Of a stretch of 44,862 nt of DNA, positions 106 through 14,278 are shown in pieces. This DNA comes from a virus. Made by a program: the position numbers and the translations under genes. The DNA is taken from IMG/VR virus record IMGVR_UViG_2547132370_000003, positions 1 through 44,862 of that record; one strand, given 5' to 3'. The notes under the pieces were generated by a model that saw only the letters and a list, made by a program, of their open reading frames with translations, was not told the origin of the DNA and ran no database searches. Position 1 is the first letter of the stretch, and the number at the start of each line of letters is the position of its first letter.

Positions 106-146
106 GTTAGTCACTTTTTTTCCCCTGTTTAGAAATGTTAGTCACT
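106..146 (+). promoter_or_regulatory. Two direct copies of GTTAGTCACT (106-115 and 137-146), putative integrase arm-type binding sites
   Basis: The 10-mer occurs twice here and once near attR (44724-44733), all in the same orientation. Confidence 0.4.
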
Positions 147-1219
147 CCCCTCTTTTCCTGCCGCTGCTCCAGGGCGCGATTGGAGAGCTTGGCGATGGCA
201 TTCACCGCGCGGGTTTTCTGCTCGGCATGACGCACATATACGCTCACGGATGCGGCCGTAGTGTGTCCCGTGATCGACATGATTTCCCGTTCCGTGCATC
301 CCATTTCCGCCAACCATGATGCCGCTGTCGCCCGCAGGCCATGCCACACAATTCCTTTCAGCCCGGCAGACCGGATTGCCTTACTGACAGCGGATTGAAA
401 CTGCCCTAGTTCCCATGGCCTGCCCGGTGCGTACGTCAGGATGGTATCCGCAGTGCGCAGCGTCAACTCCCGTTCAAGGACGCTTTTCAGTTCGGGATGG
501 CAAGGTATCCATACCTTTGCGCCCGTCTTCTCCTGCACGACCTCGATCACGTCCCCATCAAAGGCGCTCCAGGTCATGGCAATCTGGTCGATCCCGCGTT
601 GCCCCGTACCCAGCGCAAGCAGAAGGGGCAGCCGAAACTGCGGCTTTTCCCGCAGGAAGGTCTGAATTTCATCACGCGTCCATGCCCGATAGCCCGGACC
701 GGTCTTGAGCCGTTTGGGACGAAGGGCCGGGTTATCGGAACGCATGCCGATCTCGATGGCGTAGCTCATCAGGATTGAGAGCATCGATACCGTCTTGTTG
801 GCACGACGCGGGCTTGGAATCGGGTCATCCCCTTCTTTCCGGCCGGGGCGGAAAGCGTAGCGATCGCGGACCAGCCTTACGGCTGCCCTGTCCAGTTCAG
901 ACACCAGCGCCATGCCGAAATCATCCTCCAGCGGCTGGAGAAACTTTTCATAGTCCTTCCGCGTGCTGGGCTTGAGCTGCGTCCATTCCGGTGTTCCCCG
1001 ATAACGGGCTATCAGTTCGGCCAGGCTGCCGGGAATAATGCCCGGCCGAGGCCTTTCGCTTTGCTCAAAACGGTTATGGATTTCCTGGTAGGACTTCAGA
1101 AACTCGGGGCTGCCGATCTCGCCCGCGATCCGCAGGCGAACACCATGCCGACGGTAATAAGCGTATTTTTTGCGACGGGCCTGATAGGTATTAACGTAAG
1201 GTAGAACGACGTTGGCCAC
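107..1219 (-). CDS. int: Tyrosine-recombinase phage integrase
   Basis: This lies within ORF 107..1435. The C-terminus carries HGLRATAASWLAEMG and ITGHTTAASVSVYVRH (H-x-x-R, H, Y catalytic pattern). The start is set at GTG 1219, with GGAAG 4 nt upstream, giving the N-terminus VANVVLPYVNTYQ. The upstream ATGs at 1324 and 1435 would overlap the xis-like gene heavily. Confidence 0.85.
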   Translation of the reverse strand: MANVVLPYVNTYQARRKKYAYYRRHGVRLRIAGEIGSPEFLKSYQEIHNRFEQSERPRPGIIPGSLAELIARYRGTPEWTQLKPSTRKDYEKFLQPLEDDFGMALVSELDRAAVRLVRDRYAFRPGRKEGDDPIPSPRRANKTVSMLSILMSYAIEIGMRSDNPALRPKRLKTGPGYRAWTRDEIQTFLREKPQFRLPLLLALGTGQRGIDQIAMTWSAFDGDVIEVVQEKTGAKVWIPCHPELKSVLERELTLRTADTILTYAPGRPWELGQFQSAVSKAIRSAGLKGIVWHGLRATAASWLAEMGCTEREIMSITGHTTAASVSVYVRHAEQKTRAVNAIAKLSNRALEQRQEKRGVTNISKQGKKSD

Positions 1220-1499
1220 TGGTCTTCCCTGCTGCCGCTGCAGCAGCAGTCCATGAATTCGTTGTCCGTTTCTGTCCGGGCCTGGCTGAGGCGGCCTGAC
1301 CCTTGATCCGGTCCATCCAGGCATCGAGTTCTTCAATGAACCAGACGACCCGGCGGCCGGAAATATGATGGGGTCTGGGCGCATTGCCTTCGGCCACTTC
1401 TCGCCGCAGCGTCGTGACACTGATGCCACCGGCATACGCGGCCGCCAGTTCCTCGCTCATGGCACGCGGCCAATACGGCAGGCGCGATGCATCCTTCAT
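1191..1499 (-). CDS. Small HTH DNA-binding protein, excisionase/AlpA-like
   Basis: MKDASRLPYWPRAMSEELAAAYAGGISVTTLRREVAEGNAPRPHHISGRRVVWFIEELDAWM has the Xis/AlpA-type pattern. It sits directly upstream of int. Its ATG at 1499 overlaps the upstream stop codon (ATGA). Confidence 0.6.
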   Translation of the reverse strand: MKDASRLPYWPRAMSEELAAAYAGGISVTTLRREVAEGNAPRPHHISGRRVVWFIEELDAWMDRIKGQAASARPGQKRTTNSWTAAAAAAGKTSGQRRSTLR

Positions 1500-3886: not shown

Positions 3887-4245
3887 TTCCCCTCCCCCAT
3901 GCCTGCGACCTTCTCGGCAAGGATCGCGGCCAGCAATGTCTCCCATTTCCTATGGATATCGATGACAGCCCCGGCTTCCATTTCCGATGCATGGGAAGGC
4001 TGGCCGCTGAGGGCGATAATCAGATCGAGCGTTTTTTCCCGCCGGGTGCTGCGGAGCACATGGATACGGAACGGCCTTTCATCGCGCAGGTCGGACCGTT
4101 CGGCATCGGCGATCAAGGCGCGGGCACGGGTCTCATCCGCTGCGGTAAAGGCAACGTAGGGTTCGAGGCGGGAGCCATCCAGACGCATGGTGCGCAGCTC
4201 GATGACCTTTTCCGGCGGCTCGATGCGGGACAGGTCACCGCTCAT
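3883..4245 (-). CDS. Hypothetical early protein
   Basis: Starts at MSGDLSRIEPPEKVIELRT within ORF 3883..4290, with an ATGA overlap with the upstream gene. Confidence 0.55.
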   Translation of the reverse strand: MSGDLSRIEPPEKVIELRTMRLDGSRLEPYVAFTAADETRARALIADAERSDLRDERPFRIHVLRSTRREKTLDLIIALSGQPSHASEMEAGAVIDIHRKWETLLAAILAEKVAGMGEGK

Positions 4246-4724
4246 GACTGTGCACCCATCTGCTGGAGCACCTGCGCCATGCGGGCGCATACGCCCTCCA
4301 CATAGGCACGATCCCGGTAATCCCCACGCGGGCTGTGCCGCTTCATCTGAGCAAATACCGGTTTAAGATCACCCCAATGCCCGCAATCGAAGCCAAGCCA
4401 CCATACGGTGTCGGGCTCGCCGTCGTCAGGGATATGGCAGATCGACGTGGCTTCATCGCCATGCGAACAGCCGCCGGTAAATGTCAGACCGCCATGCGCT
4501 GCCTCATGAACAGCGTCCGGCATGTCATCATACGTCAGGCCATAGAGCGGATGCTGGGGCGGAATGCCCACATATCCGCACAGGATCCCGAGCTCCGGAT
4601 TTCGCTTGATCAGGCACGGCAGGCCAGTCGCCTTGTCCTGCCATTGAGTCTTGTCGGGCTCATTGTCCCAGGGACCGGGGCCAAACGGTTGTTTGTCCAC
4701 CGTGTGGTATTCACGGGTCTGCAT
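4242..4724 (-). CDS. Hypothetical early protein, first gene of the early-left operon
   Basis: A 160-aa ORF (…WWLGFDCGHWGD…). A GGAGG Shine-Dalgarno sequence lies 6 nt upstream of the ATG. Confidence 0.65.
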   Translation of the reverse strand: MQTREYHTVDKQPFGPGPWDNEPDKTQWQDKATGLPCLIKRNPELGILCGYVGIPPQHPLYGLTYDDMPDAVHEAAHGGLTFTGGCSHGDEATSICHIPDDGEPDTVWWLGFDCGHWGDLKPVFAQMKRHSPRGDYRDRAYVEGVCARMAQVLQQMGAQS

Positions 4725-4730
4725 AAAGAA

Positions 4731-4755
4731 CCTCCATCGCGGGTGGCGATGGAGG
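4731..4755 (-). promoter_or_regulatory. Perfect 10-bp hairpin between the repressor gene and the early-left operon; possible terminator/attenuator that also sequesters the SD
   Basis: The structure is cctccatcgc, loop gggtg, gcgatggagg. On the minus strand the 3' arm contains the GGAGG SD of the 4724 gene and is followed by TTCTTTATG. Confidence 0.5.
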
Positions 4756-4758
4756 TAG

Positions 4759-4806
4759 TTTCATTTAATGAAAGTATCTAGTCAAGAATAATTTCATTTA
4801 GTGAAA
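4759..4806. promoter_or_regulatory. Two direct copies of TTTCATTTA(A/G)TGAAA (4759-4773 and 4792-4806), putative left operators
   Basis: Two near-palindromic 15-mers lie 33 bp apart and flank a minus-strand TTGACT (4780-4785). The same TTTCAT/ATGAAA half-sites recur in the 5161-5252 switch region. Confidence 0.4.
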
Positions 4807-4809
4807 CTG

Positions 4810-5160
4810 TCATTTCGTGGACATCGCTTTTCCTGTTTTGATCCAGATATCCAATTTCTCCGAATCCAATTCATTAGCCAGCTCAGCGATTTCCTTATAA
4901 CGCGCGGCTTTTAGGCTTTCTTTTGGATCAAATAACAATTGCTCGGGGGTGGCTTTTAACAATTCCGCCACCCTTACGAATTGCGACAACGTCATATTTA
5001 CCTTACCATTCAGCCACTTAGAGACAGATGGTTCGGACATCCCAAGTCCCTCAGCTAGGTGTCGCTGAGTCACGCCACGCAAGCGCATCCAAGGTCGAAC
5101 GAACCGCAACGTGTGGCAGTTCAGCTCTACTTCTTCGGGTGTGAGATGCTTGTCGCTCAT
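4810..5160 (-). CDS. XRE-family HTH repressor (CI-like candidate)
   Basis: The HTH is GVTQRHLAEGLGMSEPSVSKWLNGKVNMTLSQFVRVAELL. The gene is divergent from a second XRE gene across a 92-bp spacer. Confidence 0.8.
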   Translation of the reverse strand: MSDKHLTPEEVELNCHTLRFVRPWMRLRGVTQRHLAEGLGMSEPSVSKWLNGKVNMTLSQFVRVAELLKATPEQLLFDPKESLKAARYKEIAELANELDSEKLDIWIKTGKAMSTK

Positions 5161-5172
5161 GGCGAAACGGTG

Positions 5173-5245
5173 CCACTACACGTGCACATAGTGGATGCCA
5201 CCACATGAAAACTTTCTTGACCTGAAAGTTTCATCTGAATAAATC
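5173..5245. promoter_or_regulatory. Switch region with inverted repeats overlapping a candidate rightward promoter
   Basis: ATGAAAACTTTC (5205-5216) and its near-complement TGAAAGTTTCAT (5223-5234) flank TTGACC (5217-5222). TAAATC lies 17 nt downstream (5240-5245) and 7 nt before ATG 5253. A second inverted repeat pairs CCACTA with TAGTGG (5173-5194). Confidence 0.4.
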
Positions 5246-5252
5246 TCGGTGC

Positions 5253-5486
5253 ATGAGCTTACGTGTCTTCCTTAAGCAGGCCGACCTGACCCAACGGCAA
5301 CTGGCAAAAATCGTGGGTGTTAGCGAACCCACTGTTTCTCGCTGGATCACGGGAACTGCTCTGGTACCGACGGAAAAGCTCAGAACTGTCGCCGATACAT
5401 TGGGGATATCGATCGAAGAATTGGTCCCGAAAAGCCCTGTTCCATCGTCTTTGACCGATATCTTCGAGCAGAGGGGGGCGGCATGA
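5253..5486 (+). CDS. XRE-family HTH protein (Cro-like candidate)
   Basis: The HTH is LTQRQLAKIVGVSEPTVSRWITGTALVPTEKLRTVADTLG. No SD is visible, so the mRNA may be leaderless. Confidence 0.8.
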   Translation: MSLRVFLKQADLTQRQLAKIVGVSEPTVSRWITGTALVPTEKLRTVADTLGISIEELVPKSPVPSSLTDIFEQRGAA

Positions 5487-5506
5487 ATATGATCCCCGCC
5501 CAAGAC

Positions 5507-6703
5507 CTAACTCTGCGTTCTGCGTTGCCAGAGATATTCTCCTATGTCGGGAATCGTCTGTCGTGTCTCTGCGTCCACTGCGGCCGTGATTCGGTCGATC
5601 TTGAACTGCCTGTCGTCCTTAACCCCCTCGCAGTATGCGTAAAGATCGACGACCTGGTGGGTATCCTCGGCAGGGCACAAAAACCCGATGCGGTGCGGGA
5701 CAACAGTCCGAGAGGTTTTGGTGCCGCTTATCTCGGTATAATCAATATTTATTGGGGCCGATTTCACATAAGCATCTTCCGGCGTCTCACGTCGATCGCG
5801 CACGATCTCTTTGACGGAAGTAGTGATGGACTGCAGGAATGCGACCAGCCCTGCGCTGTCGAGTACTTCGCCAGTATCCGGCAGCCATGCTTTTTCAATA
5901 TTGGTGAAAAGAAAAGCACGGCGTCCATCCCTCAGTTCGCAAAACGCATTAATGTTGGCGATCTGATCACATCCGGTTTTCCTATTTACGTAGACTGTAT
6001 AAGACGTAATGCAAATAGTTCTTTCGGTTCGACTATAGCCATCATTGTTATAGATGATTGTGATACGCTCTTTTTTTGTATTGCATCGTTTATAATCATC
6101 ATTCCAAAGGATGTCGGCTCTCGGAATTTTTTGTATTTCTGGCTCTTTATCAGAAGAAATTACTGTGTTTTGGGGGCTAACAGGTTCCACATTACGCGGC
6201 TGGGTATCGTTCCATATTCGCCGAAGCCACAGGTATTTCCCAATGTTTGGGATATCTTCTCCGGTTTCGGCATCAGCAGCTCCCTTGATCCGGCTGTATT
6301 TGAACTGGCGCGGAGCCTTCCGCAATTCGCAGTAGGCATGAATGTCTGTGATGATGACCACGTCATCCTTGTTGACGTAGAAATCGAGCTTCTGCGGCAC
6401 GATGGTGCGCTGGGTCGCGTCCCCTGCCCCATCCTGATAGTCGATGATGATTCGTGTCTTCTGGATCTCGACCGTGGAGATTTCCTGTTTGGCGCGGCGA
6501 CGTCGCGGATTGGGCGGTTCGACCTCAGCCGTGTTCCAGTCATGGAGGGCCTTCTTCGCGCCCGTTCTGGCAAACAGGACATGGATCATGGCTATCGGGA
6601 ACAATACCCAGCCGTAGATCAGCCATGGAAAGAAGGATCGGCCCTTCATCGCGGCAATAATGCCGGGCAGAGAGGCCACAAGAATAATGGCGATAATAGT
6701 CAT
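5507..6703 (-). CDS. Membrane-anchored protein with three tandem WYL-like modules (accessory gene)
   Basis: Two N-terminal hydrophobic helices are followed by three repeats of about 75 aa (nt 6227-6457, 5834-6070, 5531-5758). Each repeat has the pattern ..Y.D....(R)T..P....A(Y/F)CE....R.F...(R)I....TGE. The GC content is lower than in the flanks. The opposite-strand ORF 5483..6751 has no recognisable structure. Confidence 0.7.
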   Translation of the reverse strand: MTIIAIILVASLPGIIAAMKGRSFFPWLIYGWVLFPIAMIHVLFARTGAKKALHDWNTAEVEPPNPRRRRAKQEISTVEIQKTRIIIDYQDGAGDATQRTIVPQKLDFYVNKDDVVIITDIHAYCELRKAPRQFKYSRIKGAADAETGEDIPNIGKYLWLRRIWNDTQPRNVEPVSPQNTVISSDKEPEIQKIPRADILWNDDYKRCNTKKERITIIYNNDGYSRTERTICITSYTVYVNRKTGCDQIANINAFCELRDGRRAFLFTNIEKAWLPDTGEVLDSAGLVAFLQSITTSVKEIVRDRRETPEDAYVKSAPINIDYTEISGTKTSRTVVPHRIGFLCPAEDTHQVVDLYAYCEGVKDDRQFKIDRITAAVDAETRQTIPDIGEYLWQRRTQS

Positions 6704-6747
6704 TGTTTAATCTGTTCTTTTCCTGAAATCAGCCGCTGGGGGAGAGC

Positions 6748-6933
6748 ATGAGCATCACCCTGTCCATCCAGAAACGGGAAAAATATGTCGCTCAATTTTT
6801 TGGGCTTCCCGAGGACATGTTTTCGCAGATGTCCCTTCCCGTGGATGAGCTGGAAGAGCGGCTGCTTGAGTGGGAGTGCAATGCACGCAGGATCGCCTCC
6901 TGCGTGAAATCTGACCGACGGAGTGCAGCATGA
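6748..6933 (+). CDS. Hypothetical small early protein
   Basis: A 61-aa ORF with a GGGGAGAG SD just upstream and an ATGA overlap with the next ORF. Confidence 0.5.
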   Translation: MSITLSIQKREKYVAQFFGLPEDMFSQMSLPVDELEERLLEWECNARRIASCVKSDRRSAA

Positions 6934-7943
6934 AAATCGACATGCTCGGTTTCCGGGTCGATGAATGGGAAATTTCCAACGCCGACCCGGATCAGACCTG
7001 TGCCATCAGCCCCCGGCAACTGGTTGCCCTGCTGAAGGCGCTGGAAAATGCGTGTGAAGATAGGAACAGGCCGACGCAATCCAGTCCTCTGTCGTCGTGG
7101 CTGGAAGGGTTTGAAGCCGGATGCGAATTGTCACGGAACCGTCAGGGAGTATCGCTTTCCTCTCTCCCGCCCCTCCTGCAAGCGGCGGCAGCGTTTTCGC
7201 CTGCATGGGGCTTAACTCCATCTCAACCTGAAATGCCTGTTTCGTCTCCTTCAGGTCGTGGAGAATCGACAGCTTCACAAGCCTTATCTGATTCGGATCA
7301 AGGTTCATCGGATTCCTCTCCATCGTTGTGTGTGGTAGCCGACAAGGTAGAGGATACGGGGGATGACGTCATGTCATCCCCCGGCACGACAGCCATTCCT
7401 GACGGGATCACCGCCGCCCGGTCGCAGCACGCCGGTACGAAAAAAAGCCAGGTGTCTCACCTTGTGGACTTTCTCGTTTTCCATGGGATGGCGACCGATG
7501 CCGAGGATGCACGCTGCCTCATCCGAAAGGGTTCGGTCAGTATCAACGGTGTTGCTGTCAGCAGTGAGCATTGCCGCCTGTTTCCGGGTGACGTGATTAC
7601 GCGGGATTTCGCGTGGCATCCGCCTTTCTGTGCCCCCCTTGTCGATGGAATCCCGGTCAAGCCGCGTGATCCCATCACGGTTACGGTCGATGCCGATTTC
7701 GACGCGGTGCTGGCCCAGCGCCACGGTGAAAGGCTGGAAATCGTGACCGGGCAGAGTGGCGTGTCCGGTTTCATGAACGGCATTCGTCCCCCCACTTTGG
7801 CAGATGCCCAGAACACGCACGCGATGGTCATGCGTCTTTTTGCCAATGCGCGGCGGCTCAACGCGAAAATCAAGGCATTGCGGGGGGCGACCACCGGCGC
7901 TGCAGGTAGCAAGGCAAGGCAGAAGGGGCAGCCCCGTGGCTAA
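6930..7943 (+). CDS. Hypothetical early protein with an S4-like RNA-binding motif in the C-terminal half
   Basis: SHLVDFLVFHGMATDAEDARCLIRKGSVSINGVAVSSEHCRLFPGDVI resembles the S4 fold consensus. The middle third (about 7100-7330) is low-complexity with poor third-position GC. An alternative start at ATG 7371 has a GGGGGA SD. Confidence 0.5.
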   Translation: MKIDMLGFRVDEWEISNADPDQTCAISPRQLVALLKALENACEDRNRPTQSSPLSSWLEGFEAGCELSRNRQGVSLSSLPPLLQAAAAFSPAWGLTPSQPEMPVSSPSGRGESTASQALSDSDQGSSDSSPSLCVVADKVEDTGDDVMSSPGTTAIPDGITAARSQHAGTKKSQVSHLVDFLVFHGMATDAEDARCLIRKGSVSINGVAVSSEHCRLFPGDVITRDFAWHPPFCAPLVDGIPVKPRDPITVTVDADFDAVLAQRHGERLEIVTGQSGVSGFMNGIRPPTLADAQNTHAMVMRLFANARRLNAKIKALRGATTGAAGSKARQKGQPRG

Positions 7944-7950
7944 AGCGCCA

Positions 7951-8223
7951 ATGCCGCCACGCCCCCGCCATCGCGACACGGAGCCAGTCGTTCCGATGGT
8001 CCCCGGATTCTGGTGCGCATTGCTCATGCCGTGGAAGTGGCCCGCGCGCAGGCGCGGCCTGCTGCGGCGCGAATGCATATCGCGCGCCCAGAATGTCGGG
8101 CTGCAGGACCCGCAAGAAATCGTCAAGGCAGCATGCATTTTCGAGCAGTACCTGTCCGGAATGCTGCCTTCCGAGGTGCGCGATGAAGACGCGGCACCAT
8201 CCCCGTTTCCTCCAACTGTCTGA
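7951..8223 (+). CDS. Possible small hypothetical protein
   Basis: Only the C-terminal part (GLQDPQEIVKAACIFEQYLSGMLPSEVRDEDAAPS) looks protein-like, and the start is uncertain. Confidence 0.3.
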   Translation: MPPRPRHRDTEPVVPMVPGFWCALLMPWKWPARRRGLLRRECISRAQNVGLQDPQEIVKAACIFEQYLSGMLPSEVRDEDAAPSPFPPTV

Positions 8224-13178: not shown

Positions 13179-14054
13179 ATGGTTAGCGGAGACCGCGCCA
13201 TGCCGTCCACTGATGAGGCCCCAAAAGCCCCTCAGAACTCGGCCGACAATCTGCTGATCAAGACATGGCTTCACAACCGTGGTGCGAACACGCGCCGCGC
13301 GTATGAAAGCGATGTCCGCGCCTTCCTTGCGCATGTGGGCAAACCGCTGGCGCAGGTGACGGCGGCCGACCTGCAAAGCTGGTACGACAGCCTGACGGGA
13401 GCGGACGCCACGCGACGGCGGAAGCTGATGGCCGTCAAGTCGCTGCTGTCCTATGGCGCTGCCATGGAAATGCTGCCCCGCGATGTGGGGCCTGCCGTCC
13501 GTGTGCCGAAGATGCGCGACAGCCTTCATGAGCGGATCCTTACGCAGGAACAGGTGCGCGACCTCATTGATGGGGAAACGGACCCGCGCAGGCGGACAAT
13601 GCTGCGCGTCCTGTATGCCACCGGCCTGCGTATCTCCGAGCTTTGCGCCATCCGGTGGAAAGACCTCAAGCGCCGCCAGCAGGGCGGCGTCGCCCATGTG
13701 TTCGGCAAGGGCGGCAAGAACAGAACCGTCGAGATCCCCGCCAAGGTGTGGAAGGAGATCGTGGCGCTGCGTGTTGATAGTCGGCCAGAAGCGCCGATGG
13801 TCCCCGGCCACGATGGCGGTCCGCTTAGCGTCGATGCGGTCCACCGCTCCGTTAAGCGGGCCGCGAAGCGCGCAGGCCTGCCATCGCAGGTTTCCGCGCA
13901 CTGGCTGCGCCACGCGTACGCCAGCCACATGCAGGACAACGGCGCGCCGGCGCATGTGGTGCAGCAGCAGCTGGGCCACACATCGCTGGCGACCACGACA
14001 CGATACAGCCACGCACGCGAAGGCGCGGGCGCTGGGAAATTTCTGGACCTGTAG
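13179..14054 (+). CDS. Second tyrosine recombinase, XerC/XerD-like
   Basis: ATGLRISELCAIRWKDL, HWLRHAYASHM and LGHTSLATTTRYSH give the R, H-x-x-R and H..Y catalytic pattern. A perfect TATAAT lies at 13165-13170, 8 nt before ATG 13179. An alternative start at ATG 13200 has a GGAG SD. Confidence 0.85.
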   Translation: MVSGDRAMPSTDEAPKAPQNSADNLLIKTWLHNRGANTRRAYESDVRAFLAHVGKPLAQVTAADLQSWYDSLTGADATRRRKLMAVKSLLSYGAAMEMLPRDVGPAVRVPKMRDSLHERILTQEQVRDLIDGETDPRRRTMLRVLYATGLRISELCAIRWKDLKRRQQGGVAHVFGKGGKNRTVEIPAKVWKEIVALRVDSRPEAPMVPGHDGGPLSVDAVHRSVKRAAKRAGLPSQVSAHWLRHAYASHMQDNGAPAHVVQQQLGHTSLATTTRYSHAREGAGAGKFLDL

Positions 14055-14098
14055 CGTCACGCACGCCGGTCCCCTCACCCGTGAAGCAAGGAAGCCTC

Positions 14099-14278
14099 AT
14101 GAAGCCGAGCCGCAAGCCGCGCCAGCCCGCAACGGATGTCACTGTCTGGGAGCGTGCCGCCGCGCATTATCGTCGTATTGCGGGCCGTGACCGTCGCCCT
14201 GGCGTGAAGATCTGGGCCAGCGACCGCGCGGCGGAATGCGCGGCCAACATGCGGCGTGCGCAGCGGGAGGCCGCATGA
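14099..14278 (+). CDS. Small basic hypothetical protein
   Basis: Starts at MKPSRKPRQPATDVTVWERAA with an AAGGAAG SD 5 nt upstream. Confidence 0.45.
   Translation: MKPSRKPRQPATDVTVWERAAAHYRRIAGRDRRPGVKIWASDRAAECAANMRRAQREAA

What the first reader, a model, noticed from the sequence alone, without database searches (positions are those of the whole stretch)
5507..6703. Membrane-tethered protein with three tandem WYL-like modules beside the immunity switch
This 398-aa minus-strand ORF starts with two hydrophobic helices (aa 2-19 and 24-45) and a basic PRRRRAK stretch.

Three repeats of about 75 aa follow:
- IIIDYQDGAGDATQRTIVP…IHAYCELRKAPRQFKYSRIKGAADAETGEDIPNIGKYLW
- ITIIYNNDGYSRTERTICI…INAFCELRDGRRAFLFTNIEKAWLPDTGEV
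- INIDYTEISGTKTSRTVVP…LYAYCEGVKDDRQFKIDRITAAVDAETRQTIPDIGEYLW

The pattern Y…R-T-h-x-P … a-Y/F-C … R-x-F … R-I is what WYL-type SH3-like ligand-sensor domains look like. WYL domains are known to me as soluble sensors fused to HTH regulators or nucleases in defence loci. I do not know of a described HTH-less, membrane-anchored triple-WYL protein.

The gene lies in the classic slot for rex/sie-type exclusion genes next to CI/Cro. It has visibly lower GC than its flanks and opposes the early-right operon. That makes it a candidate lysogen-expressed sensor for superinfection exclusion or abortive infection.
Basis: partly seen in the sequence, partly recalled or inferred. Interest (0 to 1): 0.8.

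Follow-up and report, generated by a model that had tools for sequence, protein, structure and literature searches.

The report
Membrane-anchored triple-WYL prophage protein
A Komagataeibacter prophage encodes, beside its cI/cro switch, a real membrane-anchored protein with three WYL ligand-binding modules and no DNA-binding or enzyme domain, and the opposite strand of the same DNA is kept open as a reading frame that links cro to the early genes.

Summary
ORF 5507-6703(-) is a real gene: Pfam WYL E=1e-13, AlphaFold pLDDT 81, Foldseek hits to PafBC/BrxR/CapW, and dN/dS 0.09. It encodes a two-helix membrane hairpin, a basic linker and three WYL barrels; R1 and R3 pass Pfam alone, and R2 is a diverged copy.

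It is not unique. NCBI already names it "WYL domain-containing protein". It belongs to a large unstudied family in which 77 of 88 members with a WYL core carry an N-terminal membrane anchor. Most have one module; a few have two or three.

In all 18 loci examined the gene sits in the same place: convergent with a cro-like gene, co-oriented with the cI-like repressor, and interrupting the rightward early genes. That is not the rex slot. Function is untested. My best guess (0.35) is a lysogen-phase, cytoplasm-facing binder of single-stranded nucleic acid used for exclusion or defence.

Unexpectedly, the rival plus-strand ORF 5483-6751 is not mere noise. It joins cro and the next gene through ATGA overlaps. 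The same bridging frame is open in 9 of 9 non-redundant moderate-GC homologues, against 11 of 88 control ORFs (joint P about 1e-12). Its protein sequence is unconstrained (dN/dS 1.7).

The parts
5507..6703 (-). Gene for the 398-aa membrane-anchored triple-WYL protein (stop codon 5507-5509)
   Evidence: ORF. Pfam WYL E=1.2e-13. Identical to an NCBI K. europaeus protein. AF2 pLDDT 81. dN/dS 0.09 against homologues.
6563..6703 (-). aa 1-47: two-helix membrane hairpin (LPGIIAAMKGRSFFPWLIYGWVLFPIAMIHVLFA)
   Evidence: Hydropathy. AF2 helices 2-19 and 24-47. PHROG 8436 E=1.5e-10. No Pfam or NCBIfam family. The same module occurs alone or fused to SHOCT or zinc ribbons in many small proteins.
6479..6562 (-). 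aa 48-75: juxtamembrane basic linker with VEPPNPRRRRAK
   Evidence: Read from the sequence. The related IEPPN-RRR motif recurs in homologues P0005, P0006 and P0011. K/R-rich flank.
6224..6478 (-). aa 76-160: WYL module R1 with the family tail DAETGEDIPNIGKYLW
   Evidence: Pfam WYL 29.4 bits when scanned alone. AF2 beta-barrel plus helix. 90% identical to the single-module homologue P0004.
5825..6067 (-). aa 213-293: WYL module R2, diverged (N268 replaces the Arg of the 'RI' motif; the YLW tail is lost)
   Evidence: No Pfam hit alone. Blastp to R1 E=2.8e-13. AF2 barrel pLDDT 73-95. Alignment.
5510..5752 (-). aa 318-398: WYL module R3 (TRQ replaces the family's TGE)
   Evidence: Pfam WYL 28.1 bits when scanned alone. 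Blastp to R1 E=5e-26. AF2.
5483..6751 (+). 422-codon antisense ORF 'X', codon-registered with the WYL gene, bridging cro and the early genes
   Evidence: ORF. ATGA overlaps at 5483-5486 with the cro stop and at 6748-6751 with the next start. Equivalent frame open and coupled in 10 of 10 moderate-GC loci. Joint P about 1e-12. dN/dS 1.7. No family and no relatives.
5253..5486 (+). cro-like 77-aa XRE HTH gene, convergent with the WYL gene
   Evidence: Pfam HTH_3 E=7e-13.
4810..5160 (-). cI-like 116-aa XRE HTH repressor gene; HTH only, no S24 peptidase domain
   Evidence: Pfam HTH_31/HTH_3 and PHROG 'transcriptional repressor'.
5161..5252 (.). cI/cro divergent control region containing TTGACC and the palindrome TGAAAGTTTCA (5223-5233)
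   Evidence: Sequence. Repeats D1, I1 and I21.
6748..6933 (+). 61-aa ORF, first early gene after X. Preceded by GGGGGAGAG; ATGA overlap with X upstream and with ORF 6930-7943 downstream
   Evidence: No family hit.
6930..7943 (+). 337-aa early ORF with weak S4-like similarity

Best explanation
SHOWN. The minus-strand ORF is a real prophage gene. Its product has an N-terminal two-helix membrane hairpin, a basic linker and three Sm/SH3-like WYL modules, with no DNA-binding or catalytic domain. It is a multi-module member of a widespread, unstudied family of membrane-anchored WYL proteins. In temperate phages of Acetobacteraceae and relatives, the family occupies a fixed position: convergent with cro, co-oriented with cI, and interrupting the rightward early genes.

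INFERRED.
(a) The WYL modules face the cytoplasm. This follows from the positive-inside rule across the family.
(b) They bind single-stranded nucleic acid or a nucleotide-derived ligand, as the WYL domains of CapW, PafBC and Pif1 do. Having three modules would raise avidity.
(c) The gene is transcribed head-on against the PR (cro to early genes) transcript. It should therefore be made when PR is repressed, during lysogeny or its establishment, and be shut off by convergent transcription during lytic growth.
(d) Its job is to hold single-stranded nucleic acid of incoming or competing elements at the inner membrane. Candidates are cohesive ends of related cos phages, conjugative or transforming ssDNA, or replication and recombination intermediates. 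That would give the lysogen superinfection exclusion or defence without killing the cell.
For: Gene reality and domains:
- Pfam WYL E=1.2e-13; R1 and R3 pass alone.
- AF2 pLDDT 81 with three barrels.
- Foldseek: PafBC 6sj9 E=3.6e-5; BrxR 7qfz and CapW 7tb5 at probability 0.99-1.0.
- Module profile against PDB sequences: Pif1-type helicase WYL 8bnv E=6e-7, PafBC 2e-5, CapW.
- dN/dS 0.09 at dS 0.88.

Ligand site:
- The family-invariant T-x-R, Cys, R-x-F and the Arg equivalent to CapW R184/R200 (R138 in R1, R371 in R3) are kept. CapW contact residues are from PMC11662680.

Family and topology:
- 77 of 88 core-bearing hits have an N-terminal TM helix.
- The 35 single-TM members have short, nearly uncharged N-termini and K/R-rich C-flanks.

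Synteny:
- The order WYL, then opposite-strand cro-like gene, then co-oriented cI-like gene holds in 18 of 18 loci.

Moron-like traits:
- Lower GC.
- Variable module number and swapped anchors.
- Only 2 of the INPHARED phage records have it.

Convergent layout:
- 20 bp separate the two stop codons, with no canonical terminator between them.
Against: - There are no expression, binding or phenotype data.
- No recognisable promoter was found upstream on the minus strand.
- There is no effector domain, so the output step is a guess.
- The two arginines that flank the WYL motif and contact ssDNA in CapW (RWHVR) are not conserved here. Their positions are I118 and H122 in R1, so the ligand may differ.
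- The fixed position next to the switch fits a regulatory accessory as well as it fits a defence cargo gene.
- Some homologues lack a membrane anchor, so membrane location may not be essential.
- PADLOC finds only generic WYL similarity and no known system.
Confidence: 0.35

Rival explanations
1. Switch accessory. The protein is part of the lysis-lysogeny circuit rather than a defence gene. For example, it could be a membrane-tethered sensor of ssDNA from DNA damage that modulates induction. Alternatively it could be a factor made with cI from a PRE-like leftward promoter during establishment. A leftward transcript starting upstream of the WYL gene would run antisense through cro and into cI.
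For: - Same position and orientation next to cro/cI in 18 of 18 loci, across WYL proteins only 30-40% identical and across two repressor types.
- Characterised WYL proteins (CapW, PafBC) sense ssDNA produced by DNA damage.
- The window's cI-like protein is 116 aa with an HTH only and no S24 autocleavage domain, so induction needs another input.
- No canonical terminator lies between the WYL stop and cro.
- The cassette is woven into the operon by the bridging ORF.
Against: - Several homologous loci have LexA-like HTH+S24 repressors that need no extra sensor.
- There is no domain that could talk to cI or Cro.
- The membrane anchor is unexplained.
- All loci were found by searching for the WYL gene, so the fixed position may partly reflect shared ancestry.
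- Most acetic-acid-bacteria phages in the collection lack the gene.
Confidence: 0.25
2. Single-protein abortive infection. The WYL modules sense a phage-derived nucleic acid or nucleotide, and the N-terminal hairpin oligomerises to depolarise the membrane, as Rex or the 2TM effectors of CBASS and Pycsar do.
For: - Sensor-plus-TM architecture.
- Prophage location.
- WYL domains are enriched in defence contexts (PMC4012209).
- PADLOC WYL-model hits.
Against: - The anchor is interchangeable among homologues: different 2TM hairpins, a single TM, a CpXC zinc ribbon, or none.
- The same hairpin is a generic module fused to unrelated domains.
- There is no similarity to known pore-forming effectors.
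Confidence: 0.1
3. Counter-defence sponge. The phage protein soaks up the ssDNA or nucleotide signal that host WYL repressors (BrxR/CapW type) use to switch on defence systems.
For: - It has the same ligand-binding fold as host sensors.
- It is multivalent.
- Many phages carry stand-alone WYL proteins.
Against: - The gene is oriented against the early lytic operon, so it is unlikely to be made early in infection.
- The membrane anchor serves no purpose for a sponge.
- There is no precedent in the literature searched.
Confidence: 0.07
4. The plus-strand ORF 5483-6751 is the only real gene and the WYL reading frame is spurious.
For: The plus-strand ORF is longer (422 aa) and sits in a chain of ATGA overlaps with cro and the next gene.
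Against: - Only the minus frame has domain hits, a confident fold and relatives.
- On the same DNA, dN/dS is 0.09 in the WYL frame and 1.7 in the plus frame.
- AT-rich homologues keep the WYL frame but have 9-15 stops in the antisense frame.
- The plus-strand product has no relatives among 5.8 billion proteins.
Confidence: 0.01
5. The plus-strand ORF is an ordinary 'shadow' ORF produced by GC-rich codon usage, and its junction overlaps are coincidence or inherited by descent without selection.
For: - The codon-registered antisense frame is the one most often open in GC-rich genomes.
- For the window gene alone the probability of no antisense stop is only 0.04-0.08.
- The loci share ancestry, so they are not fully independent.
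- The capsid gene also has no antisense stop.
Against: - 9 of 9 non-redundant homologues have an open antisense frame, against 11 of 88 control ORFs in the same loci. Joint P is about 1e-12 with locus-specific codon usage and 10^-6.7 with window usage.
- The frame also stays open over 15-255 nt outside the WYL gene.
- A start codon lies at the cro-like stop and a stop codon lies on the next start in 10 of 10 loci. The minor Ala codon GCA precedes TGA in 7 of them.
- Synonymous sites are near saturation (dS 0.88), so descent alone would not preserve this.
Confidence: 0.2

Closest known systems
wHTH-WYL-WCX regulators (CapW, BrxR) and PafBC
   Same: Same WYL Sm/SH3-like barrel: Foldseek probability 0.99-1.0 and profile hits. 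The conserved T-x-R, Cys, R-x-F and 'RI' arginine are kept. These proteins bind ssDNA through the WYL domain (PMC11662680).
   Different: There is no wHTH and no WCX domain, so it cannot act as a transcription factor. It is membrane-anchored. It has three tandem WYL modules plus a family-specific tail (D-x-E-T-G-E-x-I-x-N-x-G-x-Y-L-W). The two arginines flanking the WYL motif (RWHVR) are absent.
WYL domain of bacterial Pif1-type helicases (PDB 8bnv, 8bns)
   Same: This is the best sequence-profile match among solved structures: E=6e-7 over the whole barrel. From my own knowledge, not checked here, this WYL acts as an accessory ssDNA-binding module rather than a transcriptional sensor.
   Different: There the WYL domain is attached to a helicase motor. 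Here it is attached only to a membrane anchor.
Prophage superinfection-exclusion and abortive-infection membrane proteins (lambda RexAB, P22 SieA, HK97 gp15, T4 Imm, lactococcal Sie2009)
   Same: It is prophage-encoded, predicted to sit in the inner membrane, lies close to the immunity genes, and is oriented like the lysogeny genes. This comparison rests on general knowledge, not on a tool result.
   Different: There is no sequence or fold similarity to any of them. It is not co-transcribed downstream of cI as rexAB is. It carries nucleic-acid-sensor modules that none of those proteins have. No phenotype is known.
Lambda PRE / anti-cro transcript and convergent-promoter switches (coliphage 186)
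   Same: It is a leftward transcription unit starting to the right of cro and running head-on into the PR transcript. This is a positional analogy from textbook knowledge.
   Different: Here a whole protein gene occupies that leftward unit. No CII-type activator or promoter was identified.
Embedded antisense overlapping genes (for example those reported in E. coli O157:H7; PMC9927249, bioRxiv 10.1101/2020.11.18.388249)
   Same: It is a long ORF fully overlapping an established gene on the opposite strand.
   Different: Here the antisense ORF covers and exceeds the whole gene and is joined to both neighbours by start/stop overlaps. It is kept open across diverged homologues while its amino-acid sequence drifts freely (dN/dS 1.7). 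That points to a role for the act of translation rather than for the product.

Membership tests
WYL domain superfamily (Pfam PF13280) | Sequence match to the family profile above the curated cut-off | tested here: met
   Whole protein 51.3 bits against a cut-off of 21.8. R1 scores 29.4 and R3 28.1 bits when scanned alone. R2 gives no hit alone but is homologous to R1 at E=2.8e-13.
WYL domain superfamily (Pfam PF13280) | Sm/SH3-like beta-barrel fold superposable on solved WYL domains | tested here: met
   AF2 model pLDDT 81. Foldseek hits PafBC, BrxR and CapW at probability 0.99-1.0. Spindlin, which has three tandem SH3-like barrels, also matches.
WYL domain superfamily (Pfam PF13280) | Conserved basic residues and a Cys lining the ligand groove (Makarova 2014; CapW-ssDNA structure) | tested here: inconclusive
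   Kept: T97/R99, C125, R132/F134 and R138 in R1, with equivalents in R3. R2 has N268 in place of R138. The arginines flanking the WYL motif in CapW map to I118 and H122.
WYL domain superfamily (Pfam PF13280) | Binds ssDNA, ssRNA or a nucleotide ligand | not testable with these tools
   Requires purified protein.
wHTH-WYL-WCX transcriptional regulators (CapW/BrxR/PafBC/DriD type) | N-terminal winged-HTH DNA-binding domain | tested here: not met
   No HTH hit in Pfam, NCBIfam or PADLOC. The N-terminus is a TM hairpin.
wHTH-WYL-WCX transcriptional regulators (CapW/BrxR/PafBC/DriD type) | C-terminal WCX extension domain after the WYL barrel | tested here: not met
   Each barrel is followed only by a strand and short helix of about 20 aa, the DAETGE...YLW tail.
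Membrane-anchored WYL family (PHROG 6785 and relatives; unnamed) | N-terminal TM anchor, then a basic linker, then a WYL barrel with the D-x-E-T-G-E...Y-L-W tail | tested here: met
   PHROG 6785 E=3.6e-17 over three stretches. 185 representative hits. 77 of 88 core-bearing hits have a TM helix before the WYL core. Alignments A1 and A3.
Membrane-anchored WYL family (PHROG 6785 and relatives; unnamed) | Position convergent with the cro-like gene and co-oriented with the cI-like repressor in temperate phages | tested here: met
   18 of 18 loci.
Superinfection-exclusion / abortive-infection prophage genes (Rex, Sie, Imm types) | Expressed from the prophage in the lysogen | not testable with these tools
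   This can only be inferred from orientation. No promoter was recognised.
Superinfection-exclusion / abortive-infection prophage genes (Rex, Sie, Imm types) | Protects the lysogen against phage challenge | not testable with these tools
   Needs an experiment.
Superinfection-exclusion / abortive-infection prophage genes (Rex, Sie, Imm types) | Homology to a known Sie/Abi protein or defence-system model | tested here: not met
   PADLOC returns only WYL-domain models. Pfam and PHROGs give no Sie, Imm or Rex family.
Functional antisense overlapping ORF (the plus-strand ORF X) | Reading frame kept open more often than codon usage predicts, across diverged homologues | tested here: met
   9 of 9 against 11 of 88 control ORFs, joint P about 1e-12. 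The frame is broken by 9-15 stops only in AT-rich homologues.
Functional antisense overlapping ORF (the plus-strand ORF X) | Own translation signals or coupling to neighbouring cistrons | tested here: met
   ATGA or close start/stop overlaps at both ends in 10 of 10 loci, with purine-rich SD-like runs upstream in several.
Functional antisense overlapping ORF (the plus-strand ORF X) | Purifying selection on its amino-acid sequence | tested here: not met
   dN/dS 1.7 and 59% identity, against 0.09 and 86% for the WYL frame. No relatives.
Functional antisense overlapping ORF (the plus-strand ORF X) | Direct evidence of translation | not testable with these tools
   Needs ribosome profiling or proteomics.

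The most novel reading that the evidence does not exclude
The locus is a two-strand cassette. A lysogeny-side gene, the TM-WYL gene, has been placed backwards inside the cro-to-early-genes operon. Selection keeps the whole antisense strand of that gene translatable as a 'bridge' cistron, X. X starts on the cro stop codon and ends on the next gene's start codon.

Under this reading the product of X is irrelevant; what matters is the act of translating it. That would preserve translational coupling and shield the 1.2-kb antisense stretch of the PR transcript from Rho-dependent termination. It would also make expression of the WYL protein and lytic transcription mutually exclusive.

I know of no described case of an antisense reading frame maintained purely as an anti-polarity bridge across an inverted gene.
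Probability: 0.5. Interest if true: 0.8.

Novelty: new variant of a known kind. Interest (0 to 1): 0.6.

Why it matters
WYL domains are currently understood as ligand sensors wired to a DNA-binding or enzymatic output. This family has only a membrane anchor, so the output must come from localisation, sequestration or a partner protein. That would be a different logic for a sensor now known to read ssDNA during phage attack and DNA damage.

Its fixed seat beside the cI/cro-type switch in temperate phages of industrial acetic-acid bacteria makes it an easy target. One deletion and one expression construct would show whether it protects lysogens or tunes induction.

The bridging antisense frame, if translated, would show how a phage can insert a backward gene into a tightly coupled operon without breaking it. 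It would also be a clean case of selection for translation itself rather than for a protein. That bears on how overlapping ORFs are annotated and on transcription-translation coupling.

Tried and rejected
1. N-terminal hairpin as a known family. I tested T4 Imm-type 'superinfection immunity', SLATT and others. Pfam and NCBIfam gave nothing significant at E up to 10, only PHROG 8436 of unknown function.

2. Known defence system. PADLOC hits are all WYL-domain similarity. 'RTasWYL-YodC' is merely a UG2-RT accessory protein with a WYL-like C-terminus.

3. Shared cI operators upstream of the WYL gene. The TTTCA-N5-TGAAA palindromes lie at 4757-4806 and 5223-5233. Only a half-site-like CCTGAAA occurs at 6722-6728, which is not convincing.

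4. Promoter and terminator scan. It found no promoter for the WYL gene and no terminator between the WYL gene and cro. The terminator-like hits are weak.

5. Rfam scan of 4000-8000. It returned nothing relevant.

6. R2 and R3 as recent duplicates or captured alleles. Their best relatives are only 35-46% identical, so they are old and have no identifiable donor.

7. Protein-level conservation of X in the stretch upstream of the WYL start. Conservation there comes from a GC-rich hairpin with compensatory stem changes, not from 3-nt periodicity.

8. The search for related loci with broad alignments failed because no stretch was conserved enough. A narrower alignment worked. Two of the three genome hits were ordinary HTH-WYL regulators and were discarded.

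9. My first ORF extraction picked wrong-frame ORFs in GC-rich loci, so I redid it in the frame of the match.

10. The literature searches found no paper on membrane-anchored WYL proteins or bridging antisense ORFs. The paper describing phiKM1 and phiAP1 does not mention the gene.
Full report
WHAT THE WINDOW IS

The window is a lambda-like prophage of Komagataeibacter europaeus.
- The integrase gene is at 107-1435(-).
- A leftward block ends with a 116-aa XRE-type cI-like repressor at 4810-5160(-).
- A 77-aa cro-like HTH gene lies at 5253-5486(+).
- Rightward genes then run to the gpA-type terminase, lambda-type portal and E-type capsid.
- The target protein is identical to an NCBI entry named 'WYL domain-containing protein [Komagataeibacter europaeus]'.
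- The only related isolated phages are phiKM1 and phiAP1 from acetic-acid bacteria.

CHECK OF THE OBSERVATION

- ORF 5507-6703(-) encodes 398 aa.
- Hydropathy and AlphaFold both give two N-terminal helices, aa 2-19 and 24-47, at pLDDT above 93.
- PRRRRAK is at aa 66-72.
- The three repeats are significantly similar to each other: R1-R3 E=5e-26, R1-R2 E=2.8e-13, R2-R3 E=0.005.
- AlphaFold models them as three separate beta-rich modules at aa 76-160, 213-293 and 318-397, joined by disordered linkers.

The WYL assignment rests on several lines of evidence.
- Pfam WYL matches the whole protein at E=1.2e-13. R1 and R3 each pass the curated cut-off on their own, and R2 does not.
- Foldseek returns PafBC, BrxR and CapW at probability 0.99-1.0. 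It also returns Spindlin, another protein with three tandem SH3-like barrels.
- A profile of the modules finds the WYL domains of Pif1-type helicases (E=6e-7), PafBC and CapW among solved structures.

GC is lower than in the flanks, at 0.43-0.45 against 0.60-0.65. The cI region is similarly low.

WHICH STRAND IS THE GENE

The minus-strand frame is under strong purifying selection: dN/dS is 0.09 at dS 0.88 against homologues in L003 and L016. It has domain hits, a confident fold and relatives.

The plus-strand ORF 5483-6751 has no Pfam or PHROG hit. It has no relatives among 5.8 billion proteins. On the same DNA its dN/dS is 1.7. The WYL protein is therefore real.

THE FAMILY

An exhaustive search of 1.84 billion representatives gave 185 hits.
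- Of the 88 retrieved proteins with a WYL core motif, 77 have one or more predicted TM helices before it.
- The usual form is about 165 aa with one module. P0004 is 93% identical to aa 1-165 of the window protein.
- Two-module members are P0002, P0003, P0016, P0025 and P0035. P0020 (500 aa) is another three-module member.

What is conserved is the barrel plus a family-specific tail, A-x-D-A-E-T-G-E-x-I-x-N-x-G-x-Y-L-W.

The N-terminal module is swappable. Versions include the KGRS-type hairpin, other hairpins, a single TM helix, a CpXC zinc ribbon in Commensalibacter, or none. The KGRS-type hairpin of the window protein is itself a generic module. It is absent from Pfam and NCBIfam, and it is found alone or fused to SHOCT and zinc ribbons.

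Single-TM members have very short, nearly uncharged N-termini and K/R-rich C-flanks. By the positive-inside rule this places the WYL part in the cytoplasm. That is an inference.

R2 and R3 are old. Their closest relatives are only 35-46% identical.

Compared with CapW's ssDNA-contacting residues (PMC11662680):
- The Arg of the 'RI' motif is kept in R1 (R138) and R3 (R371) but is Asn in R2.
- The two arginines flanking the WYL motif are not kept.

GENOMIC POSITION

In 18 of 18 loci the gene lies convergent with a small Cro/YdaS-type HTH gene. A cI-like repressor on the same strand as the WYL gene follows 176-805 bp beyond its stop. On the other side are the divergent early and replication genes.
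- The loci comprise the window, phiKM1, phiAP1, and Komagataeibacter, Novacetimonas and Commensalibacter prophages and IMG/VR contigs.
- The repressors are of two types: HTH-only of 108-146 aa, or HTH+S24 of about 215-250 aa.

This is not the rexAB position. It corresponds to where lambda's PRE transcript runs.

The loci were found through the WYL gene, so this shows where the gene sits when it is present. It does not show that the slot always holds it. Only two phage records in the collection carry it.

THE UNEXPECTED PART: THE ANTISENSE ORF

Junctions in the window:
- The plus-strand ORF starts with an ATG overlapping the cro stop (GGCGGCATGA, 5483-5486).
- It ends with a TGA overlapping the ATG of the next plus-strand ORF (GGGGGAGAGCATGA, 6748-6751).
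- That next ORF overlaps the following one by ATGA again (6930-6933).

The same holds in all ten moderate- or high-GC loci.
- The codon-registered antisense frame has no stop across the whole WYL gene, nor across the 15-255 nt beyond the WYL start.
- It begins with an ATG on or next to the cro-like stop: seven ATGA, one TGATG and two TGA-nn-ATG.
- It ends with a stop overlapping the start of the next early gene.

Statistics:
- TTA, CTA and TCA, the codons that read as stops in antisense, make up 6.9% of Leu/Ser codons in 16 other genes of this prophage. They make up 0 of 36 in the WYL gene.
- With each locus's own neighbouring ORFs as control, 9 of 9 non-redundant WYL genes have no antisense stop, against 11 of 88 controls. 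The joint probability is about 1e-12, or 10^-6.7 using window codon usage.
- These figures assume that the loci are independent and that the control ORFs are real genes. Shared ancestry weakens independence, but synonymous sites are nearly saturated.

AT-rich homologues (GC 0.30-0.33) have 9-15 antisense stops and a 224-247 bp gap upstream of the WYL gene instead.

Since only the openness of X is conserved and not its sequence, I propose that X is translated as a bridge. Translating it would maintain translational coupling and prevent Rho-dependent polarity on the PR transcript as it crosses the inverted gene. This is an inference with no expression data behind it.

When PR is active, transcription and translation run head-on through the WYL gene, so the WYL protein should be made mainly when PR is repressed.

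FUNCTION

Nothing was tested experimentally, and no paper I could search describes this family.
- I commit to a lysogeny-phase, inner-membrane-anchored, cytoplasm-facing multivalent binder of single-stranded nucleic acid serving exclusion or defence (confidence 0.35).
- The main rival is an accessory of the lysis-lysogeny switch (0.25). The invariant position favours it, as does the fact that characterised WYL proteins sense damage-derived ssDNA.
- A pore-forming abortive-infection effector is less likely because the anchor is interchangeable (0.1).
- A counter-defence sponge is unlikely given the gene's orientation (0.07).

VERDICT

The protein is a new architectural variant of a known domain family. 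It is already labelled WYL in databases, but it belongs to an unstudied membrane-anchored family with a fixed seat at the phage switch. The antisense bridging frame is the most surprising element and deserves an experimental test.

Noticed in passing
window 5483-6751 (+); junctions 5483-5486, 6748-6751, 6930-6933: The 422-codon antisense ORF over the WYL gene is chained to cro and to the next two plus-strand ORFs by ATGA overlaps. The equivalent frame is open and coupled in all moderate-GC homologous loci (joint P about 1e-12), yet its protein sequence is unconstrained.
   Followed up: yes
L003 about 4830-4900, L007, L016, L001, L002, L018, L020, L023 (upstream of the WYL start); absent from the window (6704-6747): A conserved element, GCAAC(A)CCATGGTGG, is followed by a 10-bp GC-rich hairpin with compensatory stem changes between loci and a G(G/A)CAAT loop. 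It has no T-run on either strand, so it could be an RNA element (nut/put-like?) or a protein-binding palindrome.
   Followed up: partly
window 4757-4773, 4790-4806 and 5223-5243: Operator-like palindromes of the form TTTCA-N5-TGAAA. Two copies lie just downstream of the cI-like gene, and a related TGAAAGTTTCA lies in the cI/cro intergenic region next to a TTGACC -35-like hexamer.
   Followed up: partly
window 6563-6703 (aa 1-47); proteins P0030, P0040, P0048, P0058, P0067, P0089, P0113, P0137: The two-helix module LPxxIAxxKGRSFxxWxxYGxxLFPIALIHALL is widespread as small stand-alone proteins and in fusions to SHOCT and zinc ribbons. It has no Pfam or NCBIfam family and is often followed by an (I/V)EPP motif.
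   Followed up: partly
window 4810-5160 (-): The cI-like repressor is only 116 aa, an HTH with no S24 peptidase domain. RecA-stimulated autocleavage is therefore unlikely, and induction must use another route. Homologous loci have either this type or LexA-like HTH+S24 repressors.
   Followed up: no
L020 4340-4365 and 3690-3715: The two junctions flanking the WYL/X cassette share a direct repeat of about 21 nt (GCGGCATGATCGTATCYCATA). X and the next early gene therefore begin with the same residues (MIVSH), which suggests the cassette entered by recombination at a gene-boundary sequence.
   Followed up: no
L003 5510-5962 (-) against 5641-5901 (+); the same in L015 and L016: Between the WYL gene and the cro-like gene there is a second ambiguous pair. 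A called 86-aa gene lies on the WYL strand. A 150-aa opposite-strand ORF spans it and starts with a 4-nt overlap on the cro-like stop. Neither has a family hit.
   Followed up: partly
window 14044-14119 (-): A tRNA-Val (CAC) gene lies inside the prophage on the strand opposite to the surrounding rightward genes.
   Followed up: no
window 5313-5332: A terminator-like hairpin with T-runs on both strands lies inside the cro-like coding sequence. It is a weak consensus match only.
   Followed up: no
L001 (phiKM1, LC644974) 5001-5510: The GenBank annotation of phiKM1 calls only a 121-aa C-terminal fragment ('YafY'). It misses the N-terminal membrane anchor, which tblastn and the in-frame ORF show. 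The cro-like 81-aa ORF at 5588-5830 is not annotated at all.
   Followed up: partly
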